A stretch of 64,000 nt of DNA, taken from positions 8,741 to 72,740 of the forward strand of contig CAISET010000036.1 of the NCBI GenBank assembly GCA_903884505.1, given 5' to 3'. The DNA is from an uncultured Candidatus Micrarchaeota archaeon. GTDB taxonomy: Archaea > Micrarchaeota > Micrarchaeia > Burarchaeales > Fermentimicrarchaeaceae. A model generated the notes under the pieces. That model worked only from the letters and a program-made list of their open reading frames with translations, was not told where the DNA came from and made no database searches. This document shows positions 42,801 through 63,962 of the stretch, in pieces. Both the position numbers and the translations under genes were made by a program. Each line of letters opens with the position of its first letter. Within the stretch, counting starts at the first letter, position 1.

Positions 42801-43025
42801 ATGCAATGCTGTGATTCCGGCAAGGAATTCGAGGAACGGGTATTCCTGACGCGTGCCGAGCTTGCGGAGCTTTACCTTCGGATAACGCTCAAGTCAATAG
42901 CAAGGGGCAAGCTGAAGCGCTATTTCTCAGCCCCGCTCTCCGCCAGCAGGCCGCATATCGCAGCCCGGTATCTGGGCGGCATTCTCAGCGCAAGATTCTG
43001 GGCGGGTGCGTGCTGGAGCGGCTGA
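42801..43025 (+). CDS. Small ORF (74 aa): either an independent peptide or a frameshifted N-terminus of the following radical SAM gene
   Basis: Protein-like sequence (LTRAELAELYLRITLKSIARGKLKRYF...). It ends 16 nt inside the next ORF in another frame. No motif was recognised. Confidence 0.3.
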   Translation: MQCCDSGKEFEERVFLTRAELAELYLRITLKSIARGKLKRYFSAPLSASRPHIAARYLGGILSARFWAGACWSG

Positions 43026-43939: not shown

Positions 43940-45360
43940 AAATCCTTCTCGTCGGCCTCAGGAACTTCAGGGAGATAAGGACGGAGACGCTTACGCCGCC
44001 AATCAGGATTGCCCTGCTCGCAGGCGTGCTGAAGGAGTTAGGGCATAAGATTGAGTTCATAGACCTGAAGATGCATCCCCTCGGCGATTTGGAAGAGAAG
44101 GCGCGCAAGGGGGGCTACGATTTATTCTTCGTCTTCACCGGAATCTCATTCACCAACCTCAGCGGCGTTACGCTCTATTCCCTTCTCGAAGTCTGCGGGC
44201 TGCTCGGAAAGAAATTCCCGGAAATCCCCCTCGGGATTGGCGGCACGCACGCGCAGCTCGTGCAGGAGAAGATGCTCGGCTACAAGGAAGTGAAAAATAA
44301 CGCGGACTTCATCGTCTACGGGGAGGAAAATGTATTCGCGGGCCTTCTCGGCGCAGGCGGAATCGCGAAGGACCTGGCGAAAGTCAAAGGCGTAATCTAC
44401 AAGGCGGGCGGGAAATGGAAGAAGAGCCCACCCATGCCTTTCATAGCGAACCTCGACTCCCTCCCGATGCCGCTTTTCGAAATAATGGAGATGCACAGGT
44501 ACAAGAAGCACTCGATGTGGGTGACGCGGGGATGCCCGCGCAGGTGCATCTTCTGTTCCGTCCCCCGGATTTACGGCAAGACCTACCGCACCATGTCCCC
44601 GAAGCGGGTCGCAGACGAGATGGAGCATGTCATCAGCAAGTTCGGCATGAAGCGCTACACCTCCTGCGATGACGACCTTTTCGTGAACAGGAAATGGATG
44701 TCCGACCTATGCGACGAGATAATCTCGCGCGGGCTCGGAGTCAAATGGTCGCTGACCGCCGCTGCGCGCGCGGATGAGGTCGAGCTTGAGCTCCTGAAGA
44801 AGATGCGGCGCGCAGGCTGCCTGGAAATCGGAATCGGCGTGGAGTCGGGCGACGACACGGTCCTGAAGGCGATTAGGAAGGACGTCACCACCGAGCAGCT
44901 GAGGAAGGCAATCCGTATGATGAAAGAGGCGGGGATAAGGGCGCAGGCTTTCATGATTGTGGGAAACCCCGGAGAGACAAGGGAGACGATTGAGAACACG
45001 AAGAGATTCCTTAAGGAAACTAAGCCGGACAACATCGTTGTCGCGCACGCCCTTCCGCACCCGAACACCGGGCTATGGGACTGGGTCGAAGAGAATGCGA
45101 CCTGGCTCAGCCCCCCATTCCACACGCTTTTCGCCCATGACAAGAACTTCGCGCTTCCCGAGCCCTCGTTTGAAACCAGGGATTTCACGAAGGAGGACAG
45201 GATGAAGGCGATGCGCGAGCTTTTCTCGCTGAAGATTGCGGCATACCCGCTCCACAGGCTCCCGTTCGCAATAGCCCTCTACAACAAGGACAACGGCTTC
45301 AGGCACTGGCAGGACTCGTTCATGATGGTGAGGGACTGGGTGGAGTGGCGCATGCGCTAG
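43936..45360 (+). CDS. Class B (B12-binding domain) radical SAM enzyme
   Basis: N-terminal Rossmann-like MKILLVGLRN...IEFIDL, then WVTRGCPRRCIFCSVP (CxxxCxxC). ATGA overlap with the preceding gene. Confidence 0.75.
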   Translation: MKILLVGLRNFREIRTETLTPPIRIALLAGVLKELGHKIEFIDLKMHPLGDLEEKARKGGYDLFFVFTGISFTNLSGVTLYSLLEVCGLLGKKFPEIPLGIGGTHAQLVQEKMLGYKEVKNNADFIVYGEENVFAGLLGAGGIAKDLAKVKGVIYKAGGKWKKSPPMPFIANLDSLPMPLFEIMEMHRYKKHSMWVTRGCPRRCIFCSVPRIYGKTYRTMSPKRVADEMEHVISKFGMKRYTSCDDDLFVNRKWMSDLCDEIISRGLGVKWSLTAAARADEVELELLKKMRRAGCLEIGIGVESGDDTVLKAIRKDVTTEQLRKAIRMMKEAGIRAQAFMIVGNPGETRETIENTKRFLKETKPDNIVVAHALPHPNTGLWDWVEENATWLSPPFHTLFAHDKNFALPEPSFETRDFTKEDRMKAMRELFSLKIAAYPLHRLPFAIALYNKDNGFRHWQDSFMMVRDWVEWRMR

Positions 45361-51484: not shown

Positions 51485-52042
51485 ATGGAAACTGTCCGCA
51501 TTCCGCAGGAGCGCATTGCAGTCCTCATAGGCGCCGGCGGAAAAATGAAGAGAATGATCGCGAAGCGCGCAGGCGTGAGGCTGCGCGTGGACGAGGAAGG
51601 GGCAGTGGAACTCACATCAAAGGACCCATACCACGAATTCCGCGCGAAGGACATCGTGAAGGCGATAGGCAGGGGCTTCAGCCCGGAGGACGCGCTGAGG
51701 CTCACCGGCGATGACTACTACCTGAGGGTTATAGACCTCAAACTGATAATGGGCAGCGAGAAGGCGCGCGAGAGGCAGAAGGCGCGCATAATCGGCGAGA
51801 ATGGGAAGGCGAAGAGGATGATTGAGGAATGCTCTGGTGCCATCGTCTCAGTCTACGGAAATACCGTCTCCCTCATCGGCCTTCTGGACGAGGTGGAGCT
51901 TGCCGCCACGGCGATAGACAAGCTGCTCGAGGGAAGAAGCCACTCAGCCGTATACACACTCCTGCAAAAGGGCAGGCACAAAATGAAGGAGGAGCGCATA
52001 GCGCACATGTGGGAGCCGGCTCCGAGGGAATCAAATGACTGA
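51485..52042 (+). CDS. Two-KH-domain RNA-binding protein (aDim2/Pno1-like)
   Basis: IAVLIGAGGKMKRMI and RIIGENGKAKRMIE (GxxG loops). Confidence 0.75.
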   Translation: METVRIPQERIAVLIGAGGKMKRMIAKRAGVRLRVDEEGAVELTSKDPYHEFRAKDIVKAIGRGFSPEDALRLTGDDYYLRVIDLKLIMGSEKARERQKARIIGENGKAKRMIEECSGAIVSVYGNTVSLIGLLDEVELAATAIDKLLEGRSHSAVYTLLQKGRHKMKEERIAHMWEPAPRESND

Positions 52043-52086
52043 CAGGATGAAGGGGGCAGTGCACTCCACGAGCGGGGTAATACCTC

Positions 52087-53724
52087 ATGGCTGACGAGAT
52101 GGCGAGCCAATTCAGGGAGCACTCGATTGCCGAGTTCTTCAAGAAGAACAGGCAGATGCTCGGCTTCTCCGGGAAGATAAGGAGCCTCACCACCCTCGTT
52201 CACGAATATGCCACAAATTCTCTTGATGCCTGCGAGGAGGCAGGCATCCTTCCTGACATAGAAGTGCAGATTGAGCAGCTTGATAACGGCCATATCAGAA
52301 TCACAGTTGAAGACAACGGGCCAGGAATCCCGAAGAAGCTCGCAGGGAAAGCCCTGGGCCAGATGCTCGCAGGCACGAAATTCCACCGCTACATGCAGCA
52401 GCGCGGGCAGCAGGGGATTGGCGCTTCGGGTGCGGGAATGTTCGCACAGATAACAACCGGCAGGCCCGTGAAGTTCAGGACCGGGACCGGCGATGGCAAG
52501 GCGTTCTCCGCGGACCTGAAGATAGACTTCAAGACCAACAAGCCGCTGCTTGAGGAAGAGGAGGAGAAGGACTCCGCGTACCGCGGGCTCTGGATACAGG
52601 CGGAGTTCGCGGAAGTGAAATACGATAAGGGCGAATATTCGCCTTTCGAATACCTGAAGCGCACCGCGCTCGCAAACCCGCACGCGCAGATTCTCTTCAT
52701 CGAGCCGACCGGCGAAAGGACGCTCTTCCCAAGGGCGTCTGACCTGATTCCGGAAAAGCCCGTTGAAATCCAGCCGCATCCCCTTGGGATAACAACCAGC
52801 GACCTCGTCGAGTTCGCGCACGCCTCGAAAGAGCGGAAGCTTTCCTCTTTCTTCGTCAACACCTTCTCGCGCTTCTCGCAGGGCAAGGTGCAGGAACTGA
52901 AGGAGGCGCTGCCCGAAGTCAGCATGGACATGCCTCCTGATGAGCTGCAGTGGGAGGATGCCGAGAAGCTCGTTAATGCATTCAAGAAGCTCAGATGGAT
53001 TTCGCCGGAAATGGACGCGCTCCGCCCAGTGGGCCCTGAGCAGGTTGCTAAGGCGCTCAAGAACATCTACAACCCGGAATTCATGGCAGTCGCGGAGAGG
53101 AAGCCGAAAGTTTTCCGCGGCGGAATACCTTTCATGGTAGAAGCGGCAGTCGCCTACGGAGGAAATGCCGGAAGGAGGAAGGCGGACGGCTCTGTCGGCG
53201 GCGACATCCTCCGCTTCGCGAACCGCGTCCCCCTTCTCTTCGATGCCGGAGGCTGCGCAATAATCGATGCCGTGAAGGGGATGGACTGGCGCAGGTACGA
53301 CATCAGGGACTTCGAGAAGGAGCCGGTCTCCGTCTTCGTGAACTTCGTTTCCGTCCACGTTCCCTACACCGGCGCGGGCAAGCAGGCAATCGCGGATGAG
53401 GAGGAAATCGTAGAGGAAATAAGGCTCGCGGTGATGGACGCCTGCCGCGACATGCAGCGCTACCTGCACGGCAAGGTCCGCGAGGCGGGCAGGGAGGCGA
53501 AGAAGAAGGCCATTCTGAAATACGTGACGCAGCTTGCGCAGGACCTGCCCCTGCTCGCGGGGAAAGGGAAGCCCAAGGAGATAGAGAAAAAGCTCCTGCA
53601 GATGATTGAGAACAAGTATTCCCAGCTAACGCTCGATGAGGCGGAGGAGGAGGCGGCGAACGGAAACGGAGTTAAGGAGGAGAAGCCCGAAACCGGTAAC
53701 GGCGATGAGGCGAAGGAGGAGTAG
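52087..53724 (+). CDS. top6B: DNA topoisomerase VI subunit B
   Basis: GHKL ATPase motifs (HEYATNSLDA, DNGPGI, GQQGIGASG) with an acidic C-terminal tail. Confidence 0.9.
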   Translation: MADEMASQFREHSIAEFFKKNRQMLGFSGKIRSLTTLVHEYATNSLDACEEAGILPDIEVQIEQLDNGHIRITVEDNGPGIPKKLAGKALGQMLAGTKFHRYMQQRGQQGIGASGAGMFAQITTGRPVKFRTGTGDGKAFSADLKIDFKTNKPLLEEEEEKDSAYRGLWIQAEFAEVKYDKGEYSPFEYLKRTALANPHAQILFIEPTGERTLFPRASDLIPEKPVEIQPHPLGITTSDLVEFAHASKERKLSSFFVNTFSRFSQGKVQELKEALPEVSMDMPPDELQWEDAEKLVNAFKKLRWISPEMDALRPVGPEQVAKALKNIYNPEFMAVAERKPKVFRGGIPFMVEAAVAYGGNAGRRKADGSVGGDILRFANRVPLLFDAGGCAIIDAVKGMDWRRYDIRDFEKEPVSVFVNFVSVHVPYTGAGKQAIADEEEIVEEIRLAVMDACRDMQRYLHGKVREAGREAKKKAILKYVTQLAQDLPLLAGKGKPKEIEKKLLQMIENKYSQLTLDEAEEEAANGNGVKEEKPETGNGDEAKEE

Positions 53725-54991: not shown

Positions 54992-55321
54992 TCAAGATCG
55001 CTTGGAGATATGCGGATGGATGATTCGCAGAAGTATGCCGTCCTTCATCTTTTCGAAGAGAACAAGGTCGTTGATGTGTATTTTAGCCTCGGCGATAAGC
55101 CTCTCCGGAAGAGTAACTACCTTGGAGTTTCCGACCGTACGTATCTTTCGGACATAGCCTTTCCGCCTGCCCGTGAGGATCTCCCAGCGGAGTACCTCAC
55201 CGGACGGAATATATGTTTCACCGCACTTCGTGCACTTCCATCCTTTAAGCTCGACTCCATCGCGCAATTCCGCGCCTTCAATTATCTTTCCCTTGCAGAT
55301 TACACAACGTTCCATAATCAT
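54992..55321 (-). CDS. Zn-ribbon plus AbrB/SpoVT-domain protein (antitoxin-like DNA binder)
   Basis: CVICKG...CTKCGE, followed by VRKIRTVGNSKVVTLPERLIAEAKIHINDLVLFE. ATGA overlap with the upstream ORF. Confidence 0.6.
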   Translation of the reverse strand: MIMERCVICKGKIIEGAELRDGVELKGWKCTKCGETYIPSGEVLRWEILTGRRKGYVRKIRTVGNSKVVTLPERLIAEAKIHINDLVLFEKMKDGILLRIIHPHISKRS

Positions 55322-55572
55322 CTCCTCAGCTTCAGATGGATGAGCACGATTTCCGAGGGGCATTCCACGTAAACTAACTCCCATACGCCATTTCGGGACC
55401 GCTTGAGCACGCGCATCTTCTCCTTTGATTCTTTCTCGTGCGCCCCGTTTTCCAGCAGTTCAAGCGCAAAATGCAGGTTCTTCCGGTACCTTCCATAGCA
55501 CTCTTCGTGGAAATGGCCCGTTCGGACAAGCAGCTTCCCTCTGAAGTAAAGTGCGTTTTCATCGGTATACAC
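55318..55572 (-). CDS. Small putative toxin (DUF4258/RelE-like by pattern only)
   Basis: 84 aa with a GTG start. GHFHEE...YRKN....LLENG...WELVYVECPSEIVLIHL resembles the H...R...G...vv...viTv pattern. It is first in a two-gene operon with the AbrB protein. Confidence 0.35.
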   Translation of the reverse strand: MYTDENALYFRGKLLVRTGHFHEECYGRYRKNLHFALELLENGAHEKESKEKMRVLKRSRNGVWELVYVECPSEIVLIHLKLRR

Positions 55573-55665
55573 TCAAACACCTTTGTATATACTTAATGGA
55601 CTATATATATCCTCGCATATCTTGAGTAGTTAAGTAAATGAAATGATATATTTATATTCCTTTCG

Positions 55666-55679
55666 CAATAAAAGTAAAT
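55666..55679 (+). promoter_or_regulatory. AT-rich TATA-like element upstream of the filament ATPase operon
   Basis: CAATAAAAGTAAAT lies about 20-30 nt upstream of the GTG at 55698. The whole spacer 55573-55697 is very AT-rich, with several further TATA-like words. Confidence 0.35.
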
Positions 55680-55697
55680 CACGAGTTCTGGGTTCAG

Positions 55698-57977
55698 GTG
55701 GTCGAGTTGGGTGGAAGGAAGCTCGTCTGGAATGCGGCGAAGTGCAAGTCTTCCGAGGGCTGCAGCGACTGCGCGCTCGCATGCCCAAGAGGGCTCATCG
55801 CAGTCGGGGAACTCGGAATGAAGTACTGCCGGCACTGCAGCCCGAAATATGCGGTGTGCAGCCAGGCATGCCCGAACGGCGCGATAGTCGCAAACAAGCA
55901 GGGGGTCCTGATTGTAATTAAATCCAGGTGCGATGGCTGCGGTAAATGCGCGCAGGAATGCGCGACAGGCGGAATCTGCCTGAATGCGGAAAAAAAGCTT
56001 GCCGAGAAATGCGACATGTGCGCGGCGCTAGGGAAAGAGCCCCAATGCATCGCGGCATGCAAACATGGTGCGCTTGAGCTAGTGGATGATGGGCAGGAGG
56101 AAAGCCTTGCGGCGATACCTGCAATAGGATTCGCCCATGGCCCTAATTCTTCGAATTTTACGGTGGAAGGCGCGGCCCCTCCTGCCCGGACTCCGCAGTC
56201 AAAAAAGGCGGAGCCGCGGAAAGTAGCGAGAAGAGACGGGGCGATGCTCTACGTGGGAGACGGGAAGAAAATCCCTACGGTTAGGTACCAGGAGGCTCTG
56301 CCTTTCTTCAGCGCCGAGAGGAGGTTCGCGAGCGAGCTCAGCTTCAGGAACCTCTACCTGCCCCCTGGAAAGAAGGCGAGGCTGCTCGAGGGGAACAACG
56401 GCACAAGGATATATGATGTCGAGGACGTGGGGAAGGTCTACTACATGGACTTCCCGTTCTTCAGCGAGGAGAACTGGCGCGCCGCGGAGCAGGCAAAGTA
56501 TTTCACAATCAGGCATCTTGCGGAGGAGCTTCTCGCTGAAGTCGGGCAGGGGAGCGGATATTTCAGCAGGATTGAGAGGAGGGCGCACATCTCACGCGTA
56601 GCGAAGGTCGCGGAGAAGGTGCTGGGCGAGCTCGAGCCAACTATGGATGCACAGAGGAAGGCCGCGCTCGCGAAGATAATAGCAGCGGACACCGCCGGCT
56701 TTGGGCCGATTGAGTTCCTCTGGATGGACGGAGAAGGCGAGCTCGAGGAGGTGGAGATAAACCACCCGGCAAGGGAGATTGTCGTCTACCACAGGAGGCA
56801 CGGGAGGTGCATCACAAATCTTGCGCTCAGGGGCGAGAAGCCGTTTAGGCGCGTGATGAACTCCATACTCCGGCCGATAGGAAGCTCGCTCGACAACGTG
56901 CATCCCGCAGTGGATGCGCAGCTTCCTGATGGCAGCAGGCTGCACGCGCAGATTTATCCTCTTGCGCTCAGCGGCGCGAGCGCGAACATCCGGTTCTTCA
57001 CGAATGACGGCTGGACGATACCGATGATGATAAAGGCGGGGACGGTGAGCGCGGAGATGGGCGCGTTCCTCTGGATGGCCGTGGAGTCTAGGAAAATCTC
57101 GATGGTCGTCACAGGGCCACCTGCAGCAGGAAAGACGAGCTTCCTCTCAGCGCTGCTCGCGTTCCTCCCGAAAGGGGAGCGGGTGATTTCGGTTGAGGAG
57201 GAGATGAACGAGCTGAGATTCTATGACGCCTTCATCGATTGGGTTCCTCTCAGGGGCGCATATGAAGAAAGGAAGCTGGAGGCAGCGCGCAAGGCGCAGA
57301 GCGTCTCGAACCTCAAAACTCCCATTGAACAGGTTATCAACGCGCTGAGGATGAGGCCCGACAGGATAATCGTGGGTGAGCTGAGGGGCGCGGAGGCGCA
57401 GAAGCTCTTCGCAGGCGCGAACCTGGGAATGTCATTTATGGCGACCATGCATTCCAATGAGCGCGGTACGGCAGTCGTGAAGAGGCTCCATTCGCCCCCG
57501 ATGAGCGTGCCTGCCGAAGCACTTTCGCAGCTCGACCTCGTGGTCAGCATGACGATGGACGCCGAGAGGAGAAGGCGCGTTGTAGAAGTTTCCGAGCTCG
57601 CGTGGAGATCTAGAGGGCATTTCCCGGAAGGGCTCGGCGAAGGAAGGGGAAGGAAGGTGCGCGCCGCAGGAAGCCAGGTATGGGAAAACGGCGACGACTC
57701 CGCATTCGCAAACTGCCTTTACGTTTATGACTACTCGAAGAGGGCGCATCGTGCAGTAGGGAATTATCCCTCCGCGGTATTGGACGCGCACGCGCACGTT
57801 CTCGGAAAGAAGAGGCACGATGCTGCGGCGGAACTGGGGTGGAGGGCTGCTGTCCTGGATGCGCTTGTGGAATCCGGCAAGGTCGGATTCCTGGAAGTGG
57901 GAAAGGCGCTTCAGGATTACTACAGCGCAACCGAGGAGGAGCGCGCGAGCTTCGCCGAGAAGATTGCGGGGAGATGA
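55698..57977 (+). CDS. Multi-cluster 4Fe-4S ferredoxin domain fused to a type II/IV secretion-family (FlaI/PilB/VirB11-like) filament assembly ATPase
   Basis: N-terminal Cys groups CKSSEGCSDCALACP, CRHCSPKYAVCSQACP, CDGCGKCAQEC and CDMCAALGKEPQCIAAC. Core ATPase motifs: DAQLPDGSRLHAQ, Walker A GPPAAGKTS, RMRPDRIIVGELRGAEA and MATMHSNE. Confidence 0.8.
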   Translation: MVELGGRKLVWNAAKCKSSEGCSDCALACPRGLIAVGELGMKYCRHCSPKYAVCSQACPNGAIVANKQGVLIVIKSRCDGCGKCAQECATGGICLNAEKKLAEKCDMCAALGKEPQCIAACKHGALELVDDGQEESLAAIPAIGFAHGPNSSNFTVEGAAPPARTPQSKKAEPRKVARRDGAMLYVGDGKKIPTVRYQEALPFFSAERRFASELSFRNLYLPPGKKARLLEGNNGTRIYDVEDVGKVYYMDFPFFSEENWRAAEQAKYFTIRHLAEELLAEVGQGSGYFSRIERRAHISRVAKVAEKVLGELEPTMDAQRKAALAKIIAADTAGFGPIEFLWMDGEGELEEVEINHPAREIVVYHRRHGRCITNLALRGEKPFRRVMNSILRPIGSSLDNVHPAVDAQLPDGSRLHAQIYPLALSGASANIRFFTNDGWTIPMMIKAGTVSAEMGAFLWMAVESRKISMVVTGPPAAGKTSFLSALLAFLPKGERVISVEEEMNELRFYDAFIDWVPLRGAYEERKLEAARKAQSVSNLKTPIEQVINALRMRPDRIIVGELRGAEAQKLFAGANLGMSFMATMHSNERGTAVVKRLHSPPMSVPAEALSQLDLVVSMTMDAERRRRVVEVSELAWRSRGHFPEGLGEGRGRKVRAAGSQVWENGDDSAFANCLYVYDYSKRAHRAVGNYPSAVLDAHAHVLGKKRHDAAAELGWRAAVLDALVESGKVGFLEVGKALQDYYSATEEERASFAEKIAGR

Positions 57978-57978
57978 A

Positions 57979-58839
57979 ATGAGCTTTGTAGGGACAGTCG
58001 CAGTTGATGCGGGTTCGGTCTGCGCAGCGCTCGGGATAGACCCCGAAAAGCTGCTCCCAGCCTCGAAGCAGGAGAGGCTGAAGATACTGCAGGCAGGGAT
58101 GGACATAAGCACGAAGCAGTACTGTGCGTACATTCTTGCAGTAGGGTTCGCAGCAGGGCTCCTATTCTCCGTCGCTTACGTCGCGCTCACTATCCTCTTC
58201 GGCCTGAACATATTATACGTCTTCATCGCGCTTCCCCTCGTTCCGCTTGGCATGATGTTTGCTCGTTACCACTTCGCGTTCCTTGTGCGGGCAAGAGCGA
58301 GGGACGTCGACCTGAATCTTCTTGACGCGCTCAGGCACCTGCTCAGCGAACTGCGCAGCGGGGAGAATATCGCGCATGCGGCGCTCAATGTCTCCGAAGA
58401 GGATTATGGCGCAGTCTCGGATTTGCTGAAGGAGGCGCTCATTTACATAAGCGAGGGCGCGAGCGTGGAGAGCGCGTTCAGGGAGGTCAGCGCGCGCACC
58501 CCGAGCGAGTCATTCAGGAACTTCACAGCCTCCCTGAGCTATTCGCTGAGCACCGGAAACAGCCTCGTCCAGGTTCTCGAGAAGAACGTGCGCGAGCTTG
58601 AGATGTCGCAGAGGATTGCGGTCTCAATCTACACGAACGAGTGCTCGAAGCTGAGCACTCTTGCGGTCGTGCTCACAGGTGTGCTTCCCGGGCTCCTCAT
58701 CTTCGCGCTTGCCGAGGGCGGGTTCGTTTTCGGCTTCAGGCTCCCCGTGGAGTCTTTCATGTTAATCTACCTGCTCGCTTTTCCGCTGGCAAAGTATGTG
58801 ATGCAGGCGAAGCTGGCGAGCATATCGCCAGGTGTGTGA
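57979..58839 (+). CDS. T2SSF-domain membrane platform protein (TadB/FlaJ-half-like), part 1
   Basis: TM hairpin, a cytoplasmic helical domain (LLDALRHLLSELRSGENIAHAL...SFRNFTASLSYSLSTGNSL) and C-terminal TM segments. Start is 1 nt after the ATPase stop. Confidence 0.7.
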   Translation: MSFVGTVAVDAGSVCAALGIDPEKLLPASKQERLKILQAGMDISTKQYCAYILAVGFAAGLLFSVAYVALTILFGLNILYVFIALPLVPLGMMFARYHFAFLVRARARDVDLNLLDALRHLLSELRSGENIAHAALNVSEEDYGAVSDLLKEALIYISEGASVESAFREVSARTPSESFRNFTASLSYSLSTGNSLVQVLEKNVRELEMSQRIAVSIYTNECSKLSTLAVVLTGVLPGLLIFALAEGGFVFGFRLPVESFMLIYLLAFPLAKYVMQAKLASISPGV

Positions 58840-58840: not shown

Positions 58841-59812
58841 ATGGAAATCGGCGCGGACAAGGCAAAGCTTCTGAAGGGAATTGCAGGAAGAGTGAGCAGC
58901 GACAATGCGCTTTTCGTTGCGATGGAGAAAGGGCTGCGCGGCTCTGTGGAAATCGCGCGCGGGGAGCTGACAGCAAAAGACTGGGCGAGCCTTGTCGCAA
59001 TAGGGTTCATCATTGCATTTGCGGTCTCGGCCTTCATCCTTACTGCGGTCCTACCGCTGCCTCTCGCTGTCTTCTTTGCAGGTGCGGTCGCATTCGTTGT
59101 TGCATTCTCCGTATATGCGCTGCCGCTTGTAATCGCCCAGGGAAAGACATGGGCGCTGGAGCGCGAGCTCCCGTCCTTCATTTCCTACCTCCTCTCCGTC
59201 TATGCAGAGCGGAGGAACATGCACGATGCGCTGCTCGCGGCGACCTACGCGAGCGACTACCTGAATCTGGGCCCTGAACTTAGGGCGGCATTCGCAAGCT
59301 ACAAGGCAGGCGCACCCCCGGCGAAGGCTTACGAAAGGCTGAGAAGGACGATAAAATCGAGGCATGCAAACCGCGCATTCGACTGGGTCGTAAGGTGCCT
59401 TGAGACGGGCCTTGACGTTTCCGAGCCCCTCGGGATGCTCGGCCACGACGCTTCCTCTACCCTCGAGCTTGTCGCCGAGAAGAACTCGAAGGTCGGCATG
59501 ATGACCTGGATGATATCCGCGTCCTCGGGCTTCTTCTACCCCCTCTTCACCTCGCTCGGGCTCATCATAATGTCCGCATTCGAGCGGCTCGCAGCATTCG
59601 AGATGTACTCAGCTTCGGAGAAGGACTTCATCACGCTCGTGCTCGTCGGCTATCTCTTTGCAGGGGTGCTGCTTGACTCCAGCTACAACGGCCAGGTAAA
59701 ATTCGGTGATTTCAGGAGGGGCGTGATGGTCTATTTCCCGATAATGATGCTCGTTGCGTTCAGCGTCTTTCTCATATCATACAGGTCGATTGGTGCATTC
59801 ATCGGAGCATGA
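58841..59812 (+). CDS. T2SSF-domain membrane platform protein (TadC/FlaJ-half-like), part 2
   Basis: Same architecture (ELPSFISYLLSVYAERRNMHDAL...). Start is 1 nt after the previous stop, in another frame. Confidence 0.7.
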   Translation: MEIGADKAKLLKGIAGRVSSDNALFVAMEKGLRGSVEIARGELTAKDWASLVAIGFIIAFAVSAFILTAVLPLPLAVFFAGAVAFVVAFSVYALPLVIAQGKTWALERELPSFISYLLSVYAERRNMHDALLAATYASDYLNLGPELRAAFASYKAGAPPAKAYERLRRTIKSRHANRAFDWVVRCLETGLDVSEPLGMLGHDASSTLELVAEKNSKVGMMTWMISASSGFFYPLFTSLGLIIMSAFERLAAFEMYSASEKDFITLVLVGYLFAGVLLDSSYNGQVKFGDFRRGVMVYFPIMMLVAFSVFLISYRSIGAFIGA

Positions 59813-59889
59813 TAGAGGTGTCCGAATGAGCGGAGGTGTTATGGATGGATTGGAAGGAAGCAGGATGGGCTGCGCAGCAATTCCTGCGC

Positions 59890-60096
59890 ATGCTAAAAAG
59901 CGAAAGGGTGCAGGGCGCGACCGAGTATCTGCTGATACTTGCGGTTGCGTCCATCGTCGTGGTGGTGGTGCTGGCAATGGTGAACGGCATGCGTGCAGCA
60001 GTCCCGACCCAGGTGAGCATCAATGGGACGAACCAGACGATGACCCAGGCGATTCGGAGCCAGTTTGGGAATATGACCCAGATAATAATCCCCTGA
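59890..60096 (+). CDS. Small pilin-like protein with a class III (type IV prepilin-like) signal peptide
   Basis: MLKSERVQG/ATEYLLILAVASIVVVVVLAMV, with sequons NGT, NQT and NMT. Longer starts at 59836/59845 are possible. Confidence 0.65.
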   Translation: MLKSERVQGATEYLLILAVASIVVVVVLAMVNGMRAAVPTQVSINGTNQTMTQAIRSQFGNMTQIIIP

Positions 60097-60101: not shown

Positions 60102-60539
60102 GTGGCTAGCAGCGGCAGGGCGCGCAAGGCGCAGAGTTCGATCGAGTTCATGGTCTGGATTTCGCTCGCGATGCTGATGGCAATCGCGTCCATCTCGGCT
60201 TTCGGCGTCGGCTTCTCCCAGATACGGCCCGCCGCAGGGAACATGGAGCTGCAGGCGATGCTGACAACGCTGTTCGCAAACGCGGACTCCATCGGGGAGG
60301 GCGGGACTCGCATAGCGCGGTTCACAATTCCGCCCGGACTTGGAAATTCGAGCGTGGAGGAGGCGGGCGCGGGCTGGCACGCGATGAGCTTCTCCTATGG
60401 GAATGCGACGTACAACCGAACCTTCCCATACGAGGTGGTTTTCGCCCCCAGGAACCTGCTGGAGATTCCCGGAGAGCACGTAGTGAGGATGAGCAGGAAC
60501 GGAGGTGTTTTGATTGTCGAGGAAATCAGGCATGCGTAA
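60102..60539 (+). CDS. Pilin-like protein with a class III signal peptide
   Basis: GTG start gives MASSGRARKA/QSSIEFMVWISLAMLMAIASI, with Glu at +5 from the predicted cut. Confidence 0.6.
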   Translation: MASSGRARKAQSSIEFMVWISLAMLMAIASISAFGVGFSQIRPAAGNMELQAMLTTLFANADSIGEGGTRIARFTIPPGLGNSSVEEAGAGWHAMSFSYGNATYNRTFPYEVVFAPRNLLEIPGEHVVRMSRNGGVLIVEEIRHA

Positions 60540-60915
60540 GGGCATGCTGAGCCTGGAGATTTTCCAGACTGTTTTCATACTCCTGGCAGTGCTCCTGCTC
60601 CTGCTCGGGAGCTCGCTGAAGGTTAAGGCGAATCTGGAGGCAGGCAGCAAGAGGCAGGCTGCCGCGATGCTCGCTTTGGAAATTGCAGGAAAGCTGGATT
60701 CATTTTACAGGAACGCGTGCGGAGGGGGATTCTGCTACGCGACCTTCAAGGTCGCGAAGGGCAGCGGCAACTACTCGTTCCTGCCCGATGGCGTGCTCGT
60801 GCGAAATGGCGAGATAAATGCGACTGCGCACACGTCGTTTCCGCTCGATTCGCTAAACCTGACGGTGGATGATTTTGGTGGCGAAAGCCGCATCACGGCG
60901 AGGGGATTCGGCTGA
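60532..60915 (+). CDS. Pilin-like protein with a class III signal peptide
   Basis: MRKG/MLSLEIFQTVFILLAVLLLLLG (Glu at +5). Confidence 0.55.
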   Translation: MRKGMLSLEIFQTVFILLAVLLLLLGSSLKVKANLEAGSKRQAAAMLALEIAGKLDSFYRNACGGGFCYATFKVAKGSGNYSFLPDGVLVRNGEINATAHTSFPLDSLNLTVDDFGGESRITARGFG

Positions 60916-60923
60916 AAGGCTTT

Positions 60924-61271
60924 TTGCTGCAGGGCGAGGCGGTGCTCTCCGCGTTCGTGGCTTTCCTTGCAGTTGCAATGCTGATATCTTCCGCGCTCCG
61001 GTTTGACGAGCACTGGAGCCAGAGGATGGTGTGGGAGCGGAAGCAGATTGAGGCCGACACGCTGGCGGATACGGTTGCGAAAAGGCTCGTGGATGGCGGT
61101 GGGAATGTGGACGCAGGTGCTCTTGCAAAGTCGGAGAAGGAGAACGCGGAGATTATGCTCGGGACGGAGAGGTACGGCGCGGCACCGCCGGATAATGTCT
61201 CGCTATTTTATGTTCGCAGGCTTGTGTTCGTCGATGGAAATCCAACGGTCATGGAGGTGCGGGTATGGTGA
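60924..61271 (+). CDS. Possible minor pilin-like protein
   Basis: TTG start, LLQG/EAVLSAFVAFLAVAMLISSAL N-terminal hydrophobic helix, and its position in the pilin gene string. Confidence 0.4.
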   Translation: MLQGEAVLSAFVAFLAVAMLISSALRFDEHWSQRMVWERKQIEADTLADTVAKRLVDGGGNVDAGALAKSEKENAEIMLGTERYGAAPPDNVSLFYVRRLVFVDGNPTVMEVRVW

Positions 61272-62776
61272 GGATGATTAGGATTAGGCGAGGGCAGTCA
61301 TCGATTGAGTTCATGCTGCTCCTCGTTGCAGTCGCAGTGGTCTCACTGCTCGCGCTGGGCGCAGTGAATTCGCAGATGTCCGTCCAGAAGGAAGTCCATG
61401 CTAATGCATCCAACCTGCTGGAGAAATCCTCGCTCGCCCTTGCAAACAATCTTTCCGCAGCCGCGTCAAACCCTTATGCTCCGAATAATGGTAGCGGCAG
61501 CGAAGATGAGACGGATATCCGCCTGGAACTTGCCACCAGCCAGCCATATTATGCGAACCAGACTTCTGTCGTGCAGCTTGTCGCATGGAATTACGGGGGG
61601 AGCGCCGTCACAATACCCGAATTGCTCCTTCAGTCAAACTCCAGTGATATCGGATTCACGCCAGATGAGACTGCCAGCGCGCTCGTAGGGCTTTCCTACA
61701 CCATGACGGCCTCAATCACGCCCAAGCAGGCGGGCACATACCTCCTCTCTGGCAAGGCACTGGATTCTGCGGGAATAGTGATGCGCAATTCCGACGGCCA
61801 GCCCGTCAGGGTGAACAGCTCCATTATTGTCTTGTCTGCCCCAGGGAGCGGAGGCGGCGATGAGCCCATAACAGCGCTGAACTATACAATAACTGCGACC
61901 AGGGGAAATGAGCAGTTCATTTACTCTTCGTCCCCCGCTACGCCAAGCAACATTTATTCCGTAACCGGCTGCATGAATGGGGCAACTATATGCGCTACGC
62001 CATGGCAAACTCCCGAGTGCGGGTTATGGTCATGCGACGGCGGGAACATCAATCCAGGCTGGTGCGAGCGCATTAATGGAGGCCCGTACGTTGGCTGCGT
62101 GTCATTCATATCCACCTCAGACACCTGCAATATGTGGGGCCACAAGAGCGAAGCAACTGCAAGATATATTTTGGGCAACGCCTCACTAAGCTTTGCAGTT
62201 ACCCTGACAGTGAAAAACGCAACAAACTATTCTGCAAGCGTTACGATCACTGGGCCCAGCCAGATGTTTTCGCTAAGTGAAGGGAGAGGCAACGCAACGA
62301 TGCTTGGCAGCCCGACAGCAGTTAGTGGCACGGATCCGTCGGCAACCAGCATTCTGACCGCGGTGCCAGGCACCTCAACCCCGGGTGAACAAAAAGGCAA
62401 TGTAACGACAAACGCCTCAAACTGGGTGCTGCGGAGCAGGAACAAGTTCGATGAATATGCACGTGCCGAGTCCATCTATGCGGCATCAGCTAGCTTTAAC
62501 CTGGGCAAGAATTTCACCGGATTTGGTGGCGGGGAAGGAGATATAATTTTCGTAAATTGCGGGACATTAAACGCAAAGGCAAGCGAGCTTCTTGCATCAA
62601 CTGGAGCTACGGGTTGTGCGGTTAGCGAAGATGCAATAAAATGCTCCGCCGTATCGGTCAGCTATCCACAAATCAAGCTCCAGCTGAGCCGCGAGTTCCT
62701 TGGCGGGCAGGTTCCGGAAACAAACCCGCAATATATCCTGGCGGATAACGTGACTTTTATTGTCTATACGGACTGA
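61265..62776 (+). CDS. Large (about 500 aa) pilin-like surface protein / putative tip adhesin with a class III signal peptide
   Basis: MIRIRRG/QSSIEFMLLLVAVAVVSLLAL (Glu at +5). I count about 15 N-x-S/T sequons and a cluster of 7 Cys within about 55 residues. Start at 61265 or 61274. Confidence 0.65.
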   Translation: MVRMIRIRRGQSSIEFMLLLVAVAVVSLLALGAVNSQMSVQKEVHANASNLLEKSSLALANNLSAAASNPYAPNNGSGSEDETDIRLELATSQPYYANQTSVVQLVAWNYGGSAVTIPELLLQSNSSDIGFTPDETASALVGLSYTMTASITPKQAGTYLLSGKALDSAGIVMRNSDGQPVRVNSSIIVLSAPGSGGGDEPITALNYTITATRGNEQFIYSSSPATPSNIYSVTGCMNGATICATPWQTPECGLWSCDGGNINPGWCERINGGPYVGCVSFISTSDTCNMWGHKSEATARYILGNASLSFAVTLTVKNATNYSASVTITGPSQMFSLSEGRGNATMLGSPTAVSGTDPSATSILTAVPGTSTPGEQKGNVTTNASNWVLRSRNKFDEYARAESIYAASASFNLGKNFTGFGGGEGDIIFVNCGTLNAKASELLASTGATGCAVSEDAIKCSAVSVSYPQIKLQLSREFLGGQVPETNPQYILADNVTFIVYTD

Positions 62777-62848
62777 TAACGAGGTGATGGACTACGATGA
62801 CGGGAAATGGGTGCGGCGAGTTAGCGGGTAGCGAAACGAGCCCTGTTC

Positions 62849-62869
62849 AGGCAGTCAATCCGACTGCCT
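62849..62869 (+). other. Hairpin (8-bp stem AGGCAGTC/GACTGCCT, 5-nt loop) downstream of the large pilin gene
   Basis: A perfect inverted repeat 73 nt after the stop at 62776, with no T-tract after it. Confidence 0.35.
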
Positions 62870-62964
62870 CTAATTCTGAGACCATGGCGTCTTCCCGCGA
62901 AAAAAGAAACTCTAATTCTTGGTGGCCCCCCTCGCCCACCCACCCGAAATTCTGGAAGGGGCAG

Positions 62965-63019
62965 GCGCTCTTTGCCTGCGGCAAAGGCGCCGCGCCTTTG
63001 CGTAGAACGCAAAGAGCGC
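62965..63019. repeat. Nested perfect inverted repeats (A-5nt-B-1nt-B'-7nt-A')
   Basis: A GCGCTCTTTGC (62965-75) pairs with A' GCAAAGAGCGC (63009-19). B GCAAAGGCGC (62981-90) pairs with B' GCGCCTTTGC (62992-63001). The structure contains the predicted TTG start (62998) of the next pilin gene. Confidence 0.8.
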
Positions 63020-63537
63020 AGGTGTCGCTCGAATATTACCTGCTCCTTCTGGTCGTTTCCGTGCTGCTCATAATAGCGCTCTCATGGGCAAGCGGCTTCG
63101 CGGCATCGCAGAAGGGCACTTATGCGAACGTCTCGGTTTTTGTTGAGAACGTCACAAACTCAACACTCGGCGGGCTTGGCGGAAGCGGCATTTCACCTCC
63201 GAGCGACTCAAACGCAACGCCTCAGCTTGCGCTTGAGATAGATTCATACGAGCCGTACTGGGCCGGCCAGCCCACGCTTTTCGTCACGCACATCTGGAAC
63301 CGTGGCGGAGGGATAGGCCATGTAAAACGTCTGTCAATTTCAGTGAGGGATGCCCAGGGCGGGAGCCTTCTTGTCGGGCCGTCGCTGCTTGAAAACATCT
63401 CAGTGCCATTCTCATATTCCGCCGCTTCGCAGTTTGCTCCCAATACTACCGGGATGCACACCATAAAGGCTGTCGCATTCACGGATGGCGGGCAGATTGA
63501 GATCTCGAAAGAAGTCCTTATTTTGGGTGGTGGCTGA
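62998..63537 (+). CDS. Pilin-like protein with a class III signal peptide
   Basis: TTG start gives MRRTQRA/QVSLEYYLLLLVVSVLLIIAL (Glu at +5). The ORF-track start at 62797 would give an implausibly long leader of about 75 aa. Confidence 0.55.
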   Translation: MRRTQRAQVSLEYYLLLLVVSVLLIIALSWASGFAASQKGTYANVSVFVENVTNSTLGGLGGSGISPPSDSNATPQLALEIDSYEPYWAGQPTLFVTHIWNRGGGIGHVKRLSISVRDAQGGSLLVGPSLLENISVPFSYSAASQFAPNTTGMHTIKAVAFTDGGQIEISKEVLILGGG

Positions 63538-63962
63538 TGCGAGCACAAGCCCTCATGCTTGATGCGCTGCTTGCGCTGTCCCTTGCCCTGCTCGTGGGCG
63601 AGGCGGTCTTCGTGCGCTCGTTCGGCTATACGGACACGTCCGCATCCTTAAAGGCAGACCGCGCGGGCTATGACCTGGTCAATTACATTTACATGGACGA
63701 TGCATTTTACAGGAACGTGACAAGTTCGCTTGAACATGATGGAAGAGTGACGAACTCGTCCCTTTTTCTCCTAAGACAGCGGCTGGCGTATTACGGGCGG
63801 ATTCTCGGTCTGGAAGCGCTGGACTTCGAAGTCGCAGGAATCCAGACGGAGCACATCCCCATAACCGATGGAGCCGCAGTCGCTTCGGAAAAGTATTGCT
63901 TTCCGCTTGTTGCAGGAAACGGGACGCGAGTCTTCACGGGCTGCTTGGTGACTTGGATATGA
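63537..63962 (+). CDS. Pilin-like protein (short basic N-terminus plus hydrophobic helix)
   Basis: MRA/QALMLDALLALSLALLVGEAV. ATGA overlap with the previous gene. Confidence 0.5.
   Translation: MRAQALMLDALLALSLALLVGEAVFVRSFGYTDTSASLKADRAGYDLVNYIYMDDAFYRNVTSSLEHDGRVTNSSLFLLRQRLAYYGRILGLEALDFEVAGIQTEHIPITDGAAVASEKYCFPLVAGNGTRVFTGCLVTWI

What the first reader, a model, noticed from the sequence alone, without database searches (positions are those of the whole stretch)
55698..57977. Multi-cluster ferredoxin domain fused in-frame to a type IV filament assembly ATPase
Seen: a single uninterrupted 759-codon ORF. Residues 1 to about 135 contain four Cys groups with 4Fe-4S ferredoxin spacing: CKSSEGCSDCALACP, CRHCSPKYAVCSQACP, CDGCGKCAQEC and CDMCAALGKEPQCIAAC. 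A low-complexity linker of about 50 aa follows. After it comes a complete FlaI/PilB/VirB11-class ATPase (Walker A GPPAAGKTS, Asp/Walker B region RMRPDRIIVGELRGAEA, His box MATMHSNE). The gene heads an operon with platform and pilin genes.

Established: N-terminal domains of these hexameric ATPases normally mediate membrane or platform contacts and regulation.

Inference: an Fe-S module at this position could couple filament assembly or retraction to redox state, O2 or electron supply. Alternatively, it could relate to a conductive or electron-transfer filament. I do not know of a characterised ATPase of this class with such a fusion.
Basis: partly seen in the sequence, partly recalled or inferred. 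Interest (0 to 1): 0.8.

Follow-up and report, generated by a model that had tools for sequence, protein, structure and literature searches.

The report
Iron-sulfur wire fused to pilus motor
A tiny symbiotic archaeon (Micrarchaeota, DPANN) encodes a pilus-assembly motor ATPase whose front end is a ferredoxin module predicted to hold four iron-sulfur clusters; this fusion is real, is conserved in dozens of related archaea, and was not described in any paper we could search, which suggests that pilus building in these organisms is tied to cellular redox state.

Summary
Window 55698-57977 (+) is one uninterrupted 759-codon gene.

- **Fe-S module (residues 1-132).** This is a CooF/HycB/DmsB-beta-type module with 16 cysteines in four groups. 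Three Pfam Fer4 families score above their gathering cutoffs. AlphaFold pLDDT is above 90, and Foldseek gives TM about 0.72 to four-[4Fe-4S] subunits.
- **Linker (132-204).** Predicted disordered.
- **ATPase (205-759).** A complete FlaI/GspE2/CpaF-class secretion ATPase with all catalytic motifs.
- **Downstream genes.** Two platform genes and seven pilin-like genes follow.

The fusion is not an artefact. The identical protein was called in three separate assemblies, and 72 distinct fused proteins were found in Micrarchaeota and Diapherotrites. The cysteines are essentially invariant. One subclade lost exactly the four ligands of one terminal cluster and kept the other twelve.

Closely related unfused orthologues exist, and they have no split ferredoxin gene nearby. 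The module is therefore an accessory that can be lost.

Neither archaeal type IV filament survey, nor a PilB-regulation review, mentions this fusion. The most likely role is a redox or oxygen input that gates the motor, but this is inferred and not shown. It is a new variant of a known kind.

The parts
55698..57977 (+). Whole fused gene (759 codons from GTG 55698; the alternative TTG start at 55707 gives the 756-aa P0001)
55698..56093 (+). N-terminal polyferredoxin module with a predicted four [4Fe-4S] clusters (residues 1-132), CooF/HycB/DmsB-beta type
   Evidence: Pfam Fer4_6, Fer4_7 and Fer4_11 above gathering cutoff. NCBIfam DmsB, NrfC and HydN hits. PDB sequence hits to MvhB, HycB3 and FdnH. 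AlphaFold pLDDT 89.9. Foldseek TM 0.72 to 9mqx_G, 6x1o_B, 7z0s_B and 2vpw_B.
55743..55784 (+). Cys group 1: C16-x5-C22-x2-C25-x3-C29(P)
55827..55871 (+). Cys group 2: C44-x2-C47-x6-C54-x3-C58(P)
55929..55961 (+). Cys group 3: C78-x2-C81-x2-C84-x3-C88
56010..56060 (+). Cys group 4: (K104)C105-x2-C108-x8-C117-x3-C121
56091..56309 (+). Disordered, low-complexity tether (residues 132-204); its length varies among orthologues
   Evidence: pLDDT below 50. Indels are visible in alignment A1; P0002 carries about 44 extra residues.
56310..56732 (+). ATPase N-terminal domain (about residues 205-345), also present in the unfused orthologues
56733..57617 (+). ATPase catalytic core (about residues 346-640): Walker A 57114-57140, Asp box 57174-57215, Walker B with catalytic Glu 57348-57389, His box 57444-57461
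   Evidence: Pfam T2SSE. PDB 2oap E = 4.8e-39, CpaF, FlaI. Foldseek 2oap E = 1e-32. Invariant columns.
57618..57974 (+). C-terminal extension of about 120 aa, specific to this clade (residues 641-759); confidently folded, function unknown
57979..58839 (+). Platform protein 1 (T2SSF/FlaJ N-half-like, TadB-like)
   Evidence: Pfam T2SSF 1e-12. NCBIfam ArlJ/FlaJ. Gene call. Synteny.
58841..59812 (+). Platform protein 2 (FlaJ C-half-like, TadC-like)
   Evidence: NCBIfam ArlJ/FlaJ 1.4e-5. Synteny with L006, L008 and L009.
59845..60096 (+). Short pilin-like protein (83 aa) with a class-III-signal-like N-terminus (..RVQGATEYLLILAVASIVVVVVLA..)
   Evidence: Sequence; gene call; no HMM hit.
60102..63962 (+). 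Six further genes with class-III-signal-like hydrophobic N-termini: 60102-60539, 60514-60915, 60924-61271, 61265-62776, 62797-63537 and 63537-63962
   Evidence: Weak Pfam Class_IIIsignal hits for two of them, and a weak DUF7287 hit. Sequences. Homologues in Burarchaeum-type pilus loci.
55573..55697 (+). AT-rich intergenic region with TATA-like runs; presumed promoter of the operon
   Evidence: Sequence read; inferred only.

Best explanation
**What it is (well supported).** This is a native single polypeptide. A compact CooF/HycB-type polyferredoxin binds, through 16 cysteines, a linear relay of four [4Fe-4S] clusters. A flexible linker of about 70 aa tethers it to the N-terminus of a catalytically intact FlaI/GspE2/CpaF-class hexameric type IV filament assembly ATPase. 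The gene heads a pilus operon of the two-platform-gene type in a Micrarchaeota (DPANN) chromosome. The architecture is inherited across Micrarchaeota and Diapherotrites and has been lost repeatedly.

**How it most likely works (inferred).** The Fe-S module would be an N-terminal input domain. It would play the part that the c-di-GMP-binding MshEN domain plays in bacterial PilB/MshE, but read redox state instead.
1. In these fermentative organisms, which lack an electron-transport chain, the module would equilibrate with the reduced-ferredoxin pool, or be damaged by O2.
2. Its redox or cluster-occupancy state would change how the six N-terminal modules pack on the face of the hexamer that bears the ATPase N-terminal domains.
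3. That would gate ATPase activity or docking to the platform.
4. Pilus assembly, and so attachment to a host or surface, would then follow the cell's redox and energy state.
For: **Architecture**
- One ORF with both Pfam halves above cutoff.
- All catalytic motifs are invariant.
- The ATPase is closest to A. fulgidus GspE (2oap), CpaF and FlaI by sequence and by fold.
- The Fe-S module model has pLDDT about 90. It superposes on subunits that bind four [4Fe-4S] clusters (W-AOR 9mqx, WOR5 6x1o, HycB 7z0s, PsrB 2vpw, AorA 8c0z, HDCR HycB3/4 7qv7, FdnH 1kqf) at TM about 0.7 and rmsd 2.4-3 A.

**Real and under selection**
- The identical protein was called in three ENA assemblies.
- Seven Micrarchaeota genomes carry it, including the complete genome CP058998.
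- 72 fused proteins were counted.
- The cysteines are invariant at 26-48% overall identity.
- One subclade lost exactly group-1 C1-C3 plus group-4 C4 and kept the other 12. By established NarH/DmsB topology, those four residues are the ligands of one terminal cluster.

**An accessory or regulatory part rather than a core part**
- Full-length unfused orthologues at 46-62% identity sit in the same operon, with no ferredoxin gene nearby.
- Fused and unfused members are interleaved in the ATPase tree.
- The module is joined by a disordered tether.

**Precedent for N-terminal input domains.** MshEN/N1D in PilB (PMC11656802). Subsystem-specific N-terminal domains in archaeal type IV filament ATPases (preprint 10.64898/2026.04.22.720090).

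**Physiology.** The Micrarchaeota lineages described in PMC8561730 ferment pyruvate via Por, lack an electron-transport chain and carry type IV pili.
Against: - Nothing here shows cluster occupancy, redox activity or any effect on the ATPase.
- Known Fe-S sensors (FNR, IscR, SoxR and WhiB, recalled from general knowledge) use one cluster. A four-cluster relay is typical of electron transfer between partners, so sensing seems an extravagant use for it.
- No electron donor or acceptor is conserved next to the gene.
- The link between the fusion and anoxic habitats rests on a handful of genome names.
Confidence: 0.45

Rival explanations
1. **Structural or docking module with no redox signalling.** The clusters would simply rigidify a small domain that acts as a mechanical or interaction element: contact with the platform, the membrane or a partner, or hexamer stabilisation. 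The N-terminal diferredoxin-like Fe-S domain of the ABCE1/Rli1 ATPase works this way, as does the structural tetracysteine Zn site of GspE/PilB.
For: - Fe-S domains fused to motor ATPases can be purely structural (ABCE1, from general knowledge). ABCE1 appears as a weak fold hit, 7o80_Bz at rank 34.
- A structural metal site is essential in this ATPase family (EpsE zinc, PMC5061722, listed; review).
- Archaeal type IV filament ATPase N-terminal domains are proposed to be interfaces for subsystem-specific accessory proteins.
- No redox partner is conserved nearby.
Against: - Four clusters at electron-relay spacing is a costly scaffold for genome-reduced organisms.
- Close orthologues do without it in an otherwise identical operon.
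- In this clade the module sits on a 70-aa disordered tether, which suits a mechanical element poorly.
Confidence: 0.25
2. **Electron conduit.** The hexamer would carry 24 clusters that move electrons from cytoplasmic reduced ferredoxin to the membrane machine. The purpose could be to dispose of reducing equivalents via the pilus or the host (a conductive or electron-transfer filament), or to drive a reductive step in pilin maturation.
For: - The closest folds are genuine electron wires. Two of them (HDCR HycB3/4, 7qv7, and AOR AorA, 8c0z) polymerise into nanowires; the fold matches come, the polymerisation from general knowledge.
- These organisms lack an electron-transport chain and need sinks for ferredoxin electrons (PMC8561730).
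- A separate Fe-S protein of unknown function, AapX, is encoded in the Sulfolobales Aap pilus locus.
Against: - No acceptor is evident. There are no cytochromes, hydrogenase or other Fe-S proteins in the window or in the compared cassettes.
- The platform proteins have no Cys or heme motifs (one search found none).
- The module has been lost repeatedly without loss of the operon.
- One subclade dropped a terminal cluster.
Confidence: 0.12
3. **Artefact or misannotation.** Two adjacent genes (a ferredoxin and an ATPase) would have been joined by a sequencing or assembly error or a recent lost stop. Alternatively, the Cys-rich region would bind Zn or nothing.
For: - The window is metagenome-derived, and the linker is low-complexity, where indels are common.
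- One orthologous locus (L004) has a break near the ATPase C-terminus.
Against: - The same uninterrupted protein occurs in three assemblies.
- The fusion occurs in 72 proteins across two phylum-level groups, with very different linkers.
- No stand-alone version lies next to the unfused orthologues.
- The cysteines are invariant, the Fer4 HMMs hit and the fold matches four-cluster proteins.
Confidence: 0.03

Closest known systems
Archaeal secretion-superfamily ATPases: A. fulgidus GspE2 (PDB 2OAP), FlaI (4IHQ/4II7) and bacterial CpaF/TadA (8RKD)
   Same: The bilobed N-terminal plus C-terminal domain fold. Walker A, Asp box, Walker B and His box. An operon with platform protein(s) and class-III-signal pilins.
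   Different: - None of these carries an Fe-S domain.
- The window protein scores far below the FlaI equivalog cutoff (146 against 550 bits), so it is not an archaellum motor.
- It has an extra C-terminal domain of about 120 aa.
Four-[4Fe-4S] electron-transfer subunits: CooF/HydN/HycB, PsrB/NrfC, DmsB/FdnH, WOR5-B, AorA, HDCR HycB3/4
   Same: Four Cys groups with the same order and spacing logic. Fer4_11 hit. Predicted fold at TM about 0.7. Ligand co-loss consistent with the swapped-ligand topology.
   Different: - Those proteins are stand-alone subunits that dock to catalytic and membrane partners in redox enzymes.
- This module is fused to a motor ATPase, has no redox enzyme nearby, and is minimal (about 125 aa).
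MshEN/N1D c-di-GMP-sensing N-terminal domain of bacterial PilB/MshE
   Same: An N-terminal accessory domain on a flexible connection to a type IV filament extension ATPase, which modulates the motor (PMC11656802). This is the best functional analogy.
   Different: An unrelated fold and ligand. No MshEN/T2SSE_N hit in the window protein.
AapX, the Fe-S protein of the Sulfolobales Aap pilus locus (arCOG07320)
   Same: An Fe-S protein genetically tied to an archaeal type IV pilus machine, function unknown (preprint 10.64898/2026.04.22.720090).
   Different: A separate gene, not a fusion, found in Sulfolobales, some Desulfurococcales, Thermoplasmatales and Thaumarchaeota. Homology to the present module was not tested.
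ABCE1/Rli1 (N-terminal Fe-S domain fused to an ATPase)
   Same: A ferredoxin-like multi-cluster domain at the N-terminus of a mechanochemical ATPase (general knowledge; weak fold hit 7o80_Bz).
   Different: An ABC-type rather than secretion-type ATPase. Two clusters rather than four. It acts on ribosomes.

Membership tests
Secretion-superfamily (T2SSE/VirB11-like) type IV filament ATPase | Pfam PF00437 above the gathering score | tested here: met
   73.5 bits against a cutoff of 24.9, residues 397-616
Secretion-superfamily (T2SSE/VirB11-like) type IV filament ATPase | Walker A, Asp box, Walker B with catalytic Glu, and His box all intact | tested here: met
   GPPAAGKTS 473-481; ERVISVEEE 494-502; RPDRIIVGELRG 553-564; TMHSNE 583-588. 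K479, E500, E501, E561 and H585 are invariant in 18- and 68-sequence alignments.
Secretion-superfamily (T2SSE/VirB11-like) type IV filament ATPase | Bilobed N-terminal plus C-terminal domain fold as in GspE2, FlaI and CpaF | tested here: met
   Foldseek 2oap E = 1.2e-32, FlaI 8e-30, CpaF 4e-23
Secretion-superfamily (T2SSE/VirB11-like) type IV filament ATPase | Hexamer formation and ATP hydrolysis | not testable with these tools
   Needs biochemistry or multimer modelling
Archaellum motor FlaI/ArlI (NCBIfam NF058587 equivalog) | Score above the equivalog cutoff, and an operon with archaellins, FlaH and FlaG/F | tested here: not met
   146.5 bits against a cutoff of 550. No FlaH, FlaG, FlaF or archaellin hits downstream.
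Archaeal type IV filament 'system 1' (Epd/Tad-like), or the DPANN variant of subsystem 4A | Platform protein split into two genes next to the ATPase | tested here: met
   57979-58839 and 58841-59812. The same arrangement is seen in L006, L008, L081 and L083. Definition taken from the preprint.
Archaeal type IV filament 'system 1' (Epd/Tad-like), or the DPANN variant of subsystem 4A | System-specific pilin arCOGs and a dedicated prepilin peptidase | not tested
   No arCOG profiles were available. No peptidase A24 gene was looked for beyond the operon.
Four-[4Fe-4S] ferredoxin (Fer4_11; CooF/HycB/DmsB-beta type) | Four Cys groups (16 Cys) in CxxCxxCxxxC-like patterns, and an HMM hit above cutoff | tested here: met
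   Fer4_11 29.6 against 26.2; Fer4_6 30.7 against 25; Fer4_7 30.4 against 27. Cys conservation.
Four-[4Fe-4S] ferredoxin (Fer4_11; CooF/HycB/DmsB-beta type) | Double-ferredoxin fold that places the clusters in a linear relay | tested here: met
   Model pLDDT 89.9 and pTM 0.80. TM 0.65-0.73 to 9mqx, 6x1o, 7z0s, 2vpw, 8c0z, 7qv7 and 1kqf. The clusters themselves are not modelled, and the coordinates could not be inspected.
Four-[4Fe-4S] ferredoxin (Fer4_11; CooF/HycB/DmsB-beta type) | Swapped-ligand topology (group 1 C1-C3 plus group 4 C4 bind one cluster, and so on) | tested here: met
   P0242, P0258, P0270, P0273 and P0278 lack exactly these four Cys and keep the other 12. They form one clade in the tree, so this is probably a single event.
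Four-[4Fe-4S] ferredoxin (Fer4_11; CooF/HycB/DmsB-beta type) | Actual Fe-S occupancy and redox activity | not testable with these tools
   Needs anaerobic purification, UV-vis and EPR, and Fe/S analysis
Four-[4Fe-4S] ferredoxin (Fer4_11; CooF/HycB/DmsB-beta type) | Association with a catalytic redox partner (hydrogenase, CODH or a molybdo- or tungstoenzyme) | tested here: not met
   No such gene in the 64-kb window or in the cassettes L081 and L083
MshEN-type sensor ATPases | N-terminal MshEN/T2SSE_N c-di-GMP-binding motifs | tested here: not met
   No such Pfam hit at E <= 0.01. The analogy is functional only.
Aap pilus with AapX Fe-S protein | A separate arCOG07320 gene in the locus, and Aap pilins arCOG03871/03872 | not tested
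   No arCOG profiles were available, and no comparable separate Fe-S gene lies in the operon.

The most novel reading that the evidence does not exclude
DPANN archaea of the Micrarchaeota and Diapherotrites would have a previously unrecognised class of type IV filament motor. Its hexamer would carry a ring of up to 24 [4Fe-4S] clusters. The ring would exchange electrons with the cell's ferredoxin pool, so that pilus extension (and hence contact with a host cell) is switched directly by redox state. Alternatively, the motor would double as an electron outlet towards the envelope or the host. That would be the first redox-gated or electron-conducting secretion-superfamily ATPase.
Probability: 0.3. 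Interest if true: 0.85.

Novelty: new variant of a known kind. Interest (0 to 1): 0.62.

Why it matters
- **A new kind of input.** Type IV filament motors are known to be controlled by second messengers, partner proteins and a structural zinc site. A multi-cluster Fe-S input has not been described in the literature we could search.
- **Relevance to DPANN biology.** These archaea depend on physical contact with hosts, and their pili are prime candidates for making that contact. A redox-linked motor would give a concrete, testable mechanism for when these cells deploy pili.
- **A possible wider link.** It would tie in with the unexplained Fe-S protein AapX of crenarchaeal Aap pili, hinting at a broader connection between Fe-S proteins and pili in archaea.
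- **A natural experiment.** Closely related fused and unfused orthologues sit in identical operons, which makes comparison straightforward.
- **A practical point.** Current annotation ('ATPase, T2SS/T4P/T4SS family') hides the module, so genome-based metabolic reconstructions of DPANN miss it.

Tried and rejected
1. **Lost stop or assembly chimera.** Rejected. The identical protein was called in three assemblies, and the fusion is conserved in 72 proteins.
2. **A split form (stand-alone ferredoxin beside an unfused ATPase) in L005, L006 and L008.** None found. The only candidate was a 74-aa, 8-Cys ORF in L008. It is an Arg/Ser-rich shadow ORF opposite a real gene.
3. **A redox partner in the window.** None found. 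The window holds MCM, MetRS, topoisomerase VI, AglB, many glycosyltransferases and two radical-SAM enzymes. No other ferredoxin-type motif sits in a plausible gene.
4. **A single origin of the fusion.**
   - The window's module is most similar to other ATPase-borne modules (77-66 bits), but the best stand-alone ferredoxin scores 64.5 bits, so this stays unresolved.
   - The ATPase tree is a quick neighbour-joining tree with a midpoint root. It should not be over-read.
5. **Direct measurement of cluster geometry.** Not possible. Model coordinates are not exposed to the script environment.
6. **The N-terminal profile search.** It returned stand-alone ferredoxins but, oddly, not the known fused ATPases, presumably because of the word prefilter. 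It could not be used to count fusions.
7. **My first regex classifier undercounted fusions** (for example P0055 and P0204). I replaced it with a Cys-density rule.
8. **Literature.** Eight full-text searches and four papers read. None describes the fusion, but subscription-only papers are not covered.
Full report
**1.

Window 55698-57977 (+) is a single ORF of 759 codons counted from GTG 55698. Public gene calls for the identical protein (P0001, 756 aa) start at TTG 55707. That TTG lies 7 nt after an AGGTG sequence. The choice of start does not touch any domain.

- Pfam places T2SSE on residues 397-616 (E = 1.6e-20).
- Three ferredoxin families score above their gathering cutoffs on residues 10-130: Fer4_6, Fer4_7 and Fer4_11.
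- NCBIfam adds DmsB, NrfC, HydN, TtrB and FdnH-type hits on residues 42-130. It also gives FlaI, TadA and VirB11-type hits on residues 300-634, all far below their equivalog cutoffs.

**2. Anatomy.**

An AlphaFold2 model built on a 68-sequence alignment has a mean pLDDT of 82.7. It shows three parts:
- residues 5-131, confident (block means 91-96);
- residues 132-204, disordered (pLDDT below 50);
- residues 205-759, mostly confident.

*ATPase.* This part matches A. fulgidus GspE (2OAP) best, then FlaI and CpaF/TadA. This holds by sequence (E = 4.8e-39, 1.9e-24 and 1.2e-28) and by fold (E = 1e-32, 8e-30 and 4e-23). Walker A, the Asp box, Walker B with its catalytic Glu, and the His box are invariant in alignments of 18 and 68 relatives. 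An extension of about 120 aa (641-759) is confidently folded and shared by the clade, including its unfused members.

*Fe-S module.* Modelled alone, the N-terminal module has pLDDT 89.9 and pTM 0.80. It superposes on subunits that each carry four [4Fe-4S] clusters:
- the Fe-S subunits of a bifurcating W-aldehyde oxidoreductase (9mqx_G/E; TM 0.72-0.73, rmsd about 3 Å);
- the WOR5 small subunit (6x1o_B; rmsd 2.5 Å);
- HycB (7z0s_B), PsrB (2vpw_B), AorA (8c0z_C), HDCR HycB3/4 (7qv7) and FdnH (1kqf_B).

Sequence search of the PDB finds the same families. The module is therefore a minimal CooF/HycB/DmsB-beta-type polyferredoxin of about 125 aa. A profile of the module retrieves stand-alone ferredoxins of this type, 128-230 aa long, as its nearest non-ATPase relatives. 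An example is a 128-aa protein of Methanothermus fervidus.

**3. Context.**

The window is ordinary archaeal chromosome (56.6% GC). It carries MCM, MetRS, topoisomerase VI A and B, AglB, a large glycosylation island and two tRNAs.

Directly downstream of the ATPase lie two platform genes: T2SSF/FlaJ N-half-like at 57979-58839, and FlaJ C-half-like at 58841-59812. Seven genes whose products begin with class-III-signal-like hydrophobic segments follow. One of them is an 83-aa short pilin-like protein.

A platform split into two genes is the hallmark of archaeal type IV filament 'system 1' (Epd/Tad-like), and of the DPANN form of subsystem 4A, as described in the 2026 preprint by Sivabalasarma and Albers.

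The window contains no hydrogenase, CODH, cytochrome or other ferredoxin gene.

**4. The fusion is real, conserved and widespread.**

- The identical protein, with the same neighbours, was called in three ENA assemblies, ERZ1426811, ERZ1426812 and ERZ1426813.
- Homologues at 43-85% identity (P0002-P0005 and P0007-P0012) keep the fusion. All 16 motif cysteines are invariant, while a 17th Cys (C94) is not.
- Among species-representative genomes, seven Micrarchaeota loci carry it. One is the complete chromosome of Ca. Fermentimicrarchaeum limneticum Sv326.
- An exhaustive HMMER scan of 1.84 billion cluster representatives turned up a second, more distant group of fused ATPases, about 26-31% identical to the window protein overall.
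- A profile search of that group found many more, named by their sources as Ca. Diapherotrites, Ca. Iainarchaeum or Micrarchaeota.
- Among the 295 ATPase-family proteins collected, 72 have at least 14 Cys in a 135-aa N-terminal window. A further 12 have 8-13; most of these are N-terminally truncated calls or the subclade described in section 5.
- Two of the distant members were inspected in their contigs. Both head the same cassette of a fused ATPase followed by two T2SSF genes, next to giant ORFs of 1,460-3,908 aa.
- Across 61 fused sequences, 14 of the 16 Cys are invariant and two are conserved in at least 90%. In a curated 23-sequence alignment of the module alone, 15 are invariant and one is at least 90% conserved, together with A62 and K104.

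**5. An internal test that the cysteines behave as cluster ligands.**

Five proteins (P0242, P0258, P0270, P0273 and P0278) form one clade in the tree. They lack exactly C1-C3 of group 1 and C4 of group 4, and keep the other twelve cysteines.

In the established topology of NarH/DmsB/FdnH-type proteins (textbook structural knowledge), those four residues together ligate one terminal cluster, FS1. Group 4 C1-C3 together with group 1 C4 ligate the next cluster along.

So this lineage dropped one whole cluster cleanly and kept a contiguous relay of three. It is probably a single evolutionary event. Even so, it is the pattern expected only if the motifs function as canonical clusters.

**6. The module can be lost.**

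- Unfused proteins at 46-62% identity to the window protein are full length, with Walker A at residues 282-285 and at most 3 Cys in the first 200 residues. These are P0006 and P0013-P0018, from sources including Ca. Burarchaeum australiense and other Micrarchaeota.
- They sit in an operon with the same platform and pilin-like genes.
- Those loci contain no stand-alone ferredoxin gene. The single candidate was a shadow ORF.
- In a quick neighbour-joining tree of the ATPase core (267 sequences), fused and unfused members are interleaved within two clades. That pattern implies repeated loss, or less likely transfer of the module.
- The window's module is most similar to other ATPase-borne modules, but only marginally more than to the best stand-alone ferredoxins. 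A single origin is plausible but unproven.

**7. Mechanism.**

*Shown:* the architecture, its conservation, and that it can be lost.

*Inferred:* the function. I favour an N-terminal redox or oxygen input domain (confidence about 0.45), for four reasons.
- N-terminal domains of these motors are the known sites of regulatory input and platform contact. Examples are MshEN binding c-di-GMP (review PMC11656802) and subsystem-specific N-terminal domains in archaea.
- The module is tethered rather than integrated, and close relatives work without it.
- No partner enzyme is conserved nearby.
- The Micrarchaeota lineages described in PMC8561730 ferment pyruvate through ferredoxin-dependent oxidoreductases and lack an electron-transport chain. 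The ferredoxin pool is therefore a natural read-out of their energy state.

The main weakness is that four clusters are more than a sensor needs.

Rivals:
- a purely structural or docking Fe-S domain, ABCE1-like (0.25);
- a true electron conduit to the envelope, the pilus or the host (0.12), which the nanowire-forming nearest folds make attractive but for which no acceptor is visible;
- an artefact or a non-Fe-S site (0.03).

**8. Comparison with what is known, and novelty.**

The ATPase is a member of the secretion-superfamily type IV filament ATPases. It is not an archaellum FlaI. The N-terminal module meets the sequence, fold and topology criteria of four-cluster ferredoxins, but lacks their usual partner context.

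The following do not mention a ferredoxin or Fe-S domain on a type IV filament ATPase:
- the 2016 census of archaeal type IV pili (PMC4858521);
- the 2026 archaeal type IV filament preprint;
- the 2024 PilB-regulation review;
- eight full-text searches.

The nearest precedent is the separate Fe-S protein AapX of Aap pilus loci, whose function is unknown. Databases already hold the fused proteins. JGI's automatic names ('Flp pilus assembly CpaF family ATPase/Fe-S-cluster-containing hydrogenase component 2') reveal both halves. The sequence family is therefore not new, but its recognition and interpretation appear to be.

I rate it a new variant of a known kind, with interest 0.62. The finding is solid, taxonomically broad and easy to test, but its function is unknown.

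Noticed in passing
P0242, P0258, P0270, P0273, P0278 (Diapherotrites/Iainarchaeum-type fused ATPases): This subclade lost exactly four cysteines (group 1 C1-C3 and group 4 C4) and kept the other 12. That amounts to clean loss of one terminal [4Fe-4S] cluster, leaving a three-cluster relay.
   Followed up: partly
window 57618-57974 (residues 641-759 of the ATPase): A confidently folded C-terminal extension of about 120 aa (beta-sheet plus helical bundle). It is shared by fused and unfused members of this Micrarchaeota clade and absent from FlaI/GspE2-length relatives. Its function is unknown.
   Followed up: no
window 54992-55384 (-) and 55318-55572 (-): Two small genes lie divergently upstream of the pilus operon. 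The first has an N-terminal CxxC...CxxC zinc-ribbon and a C-terminal MazE/AbrB (SpoVT)-type DNA-binding domain (Pfam E = 3e-5, just below cutoff). It is a candidate operon regulator, or the antitoxin half of a toxin-antitoxin pair.
   Followed up: no
window 43010-43939 (+) and 43684-45360 (+): Two radical-SAM genes, one with a SPASM domain and one with a B12-binding domain, sit inside a large glycosylation island about 10 kb upstream of the pilus operon. Any link to pilin modification, or to the AapX-type Fe-S proteins of other archaeal pilus loci, was not examined.
   Followed up: no
L081 1-6618 and 15564-end; L083 10301-14863: Giant ORFs (3,908, at least 1,460, and 1,520 aa) with no Pfam hits flank the Fer4-ATPase plus two-T2SSF cassettes in Diapherotrites-type contigs. 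They may be surface or host-interaction proteins functionally linked to the pilus.
   Followed up: no
L004 7980-10200 (MAG MFD04408.bin.1.57): The orthologous fused ATPase is broken into two ORFs near its C-terminus (7980-10004 and 9964-10200). This is either a frameshift error in that assembly or a pseudogene.
   Followed up: no
window 56091-56309 compared with P0002: The disordered linker is prone to indels. P0002, about 85% identical overall, carries about 44 extra low-complexity residues (Ala, Gly, Pro and Gln-rich) at this position. Other fused clades have almost no linker.
   Followed up: partly
window 51853-53469 (-), 57432-58133 (-) and similar: Long antisense 'shadow' ORFs (up to 538 aa) overlap real genes such as topoisomerase VI B and the ATPase. 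They look like a by-product of the window's 56.6% GC content rather than genes.
   Followed up: no
(profile search with the Fe-S module alone): The word-indexed protein search returned stand-alone ferredoxins but none of the known fused ATPases, although these should score about 100 bits. It is a caution that this tool's prefilter can miss domain matches inside longer proteins.
   Followed up: no
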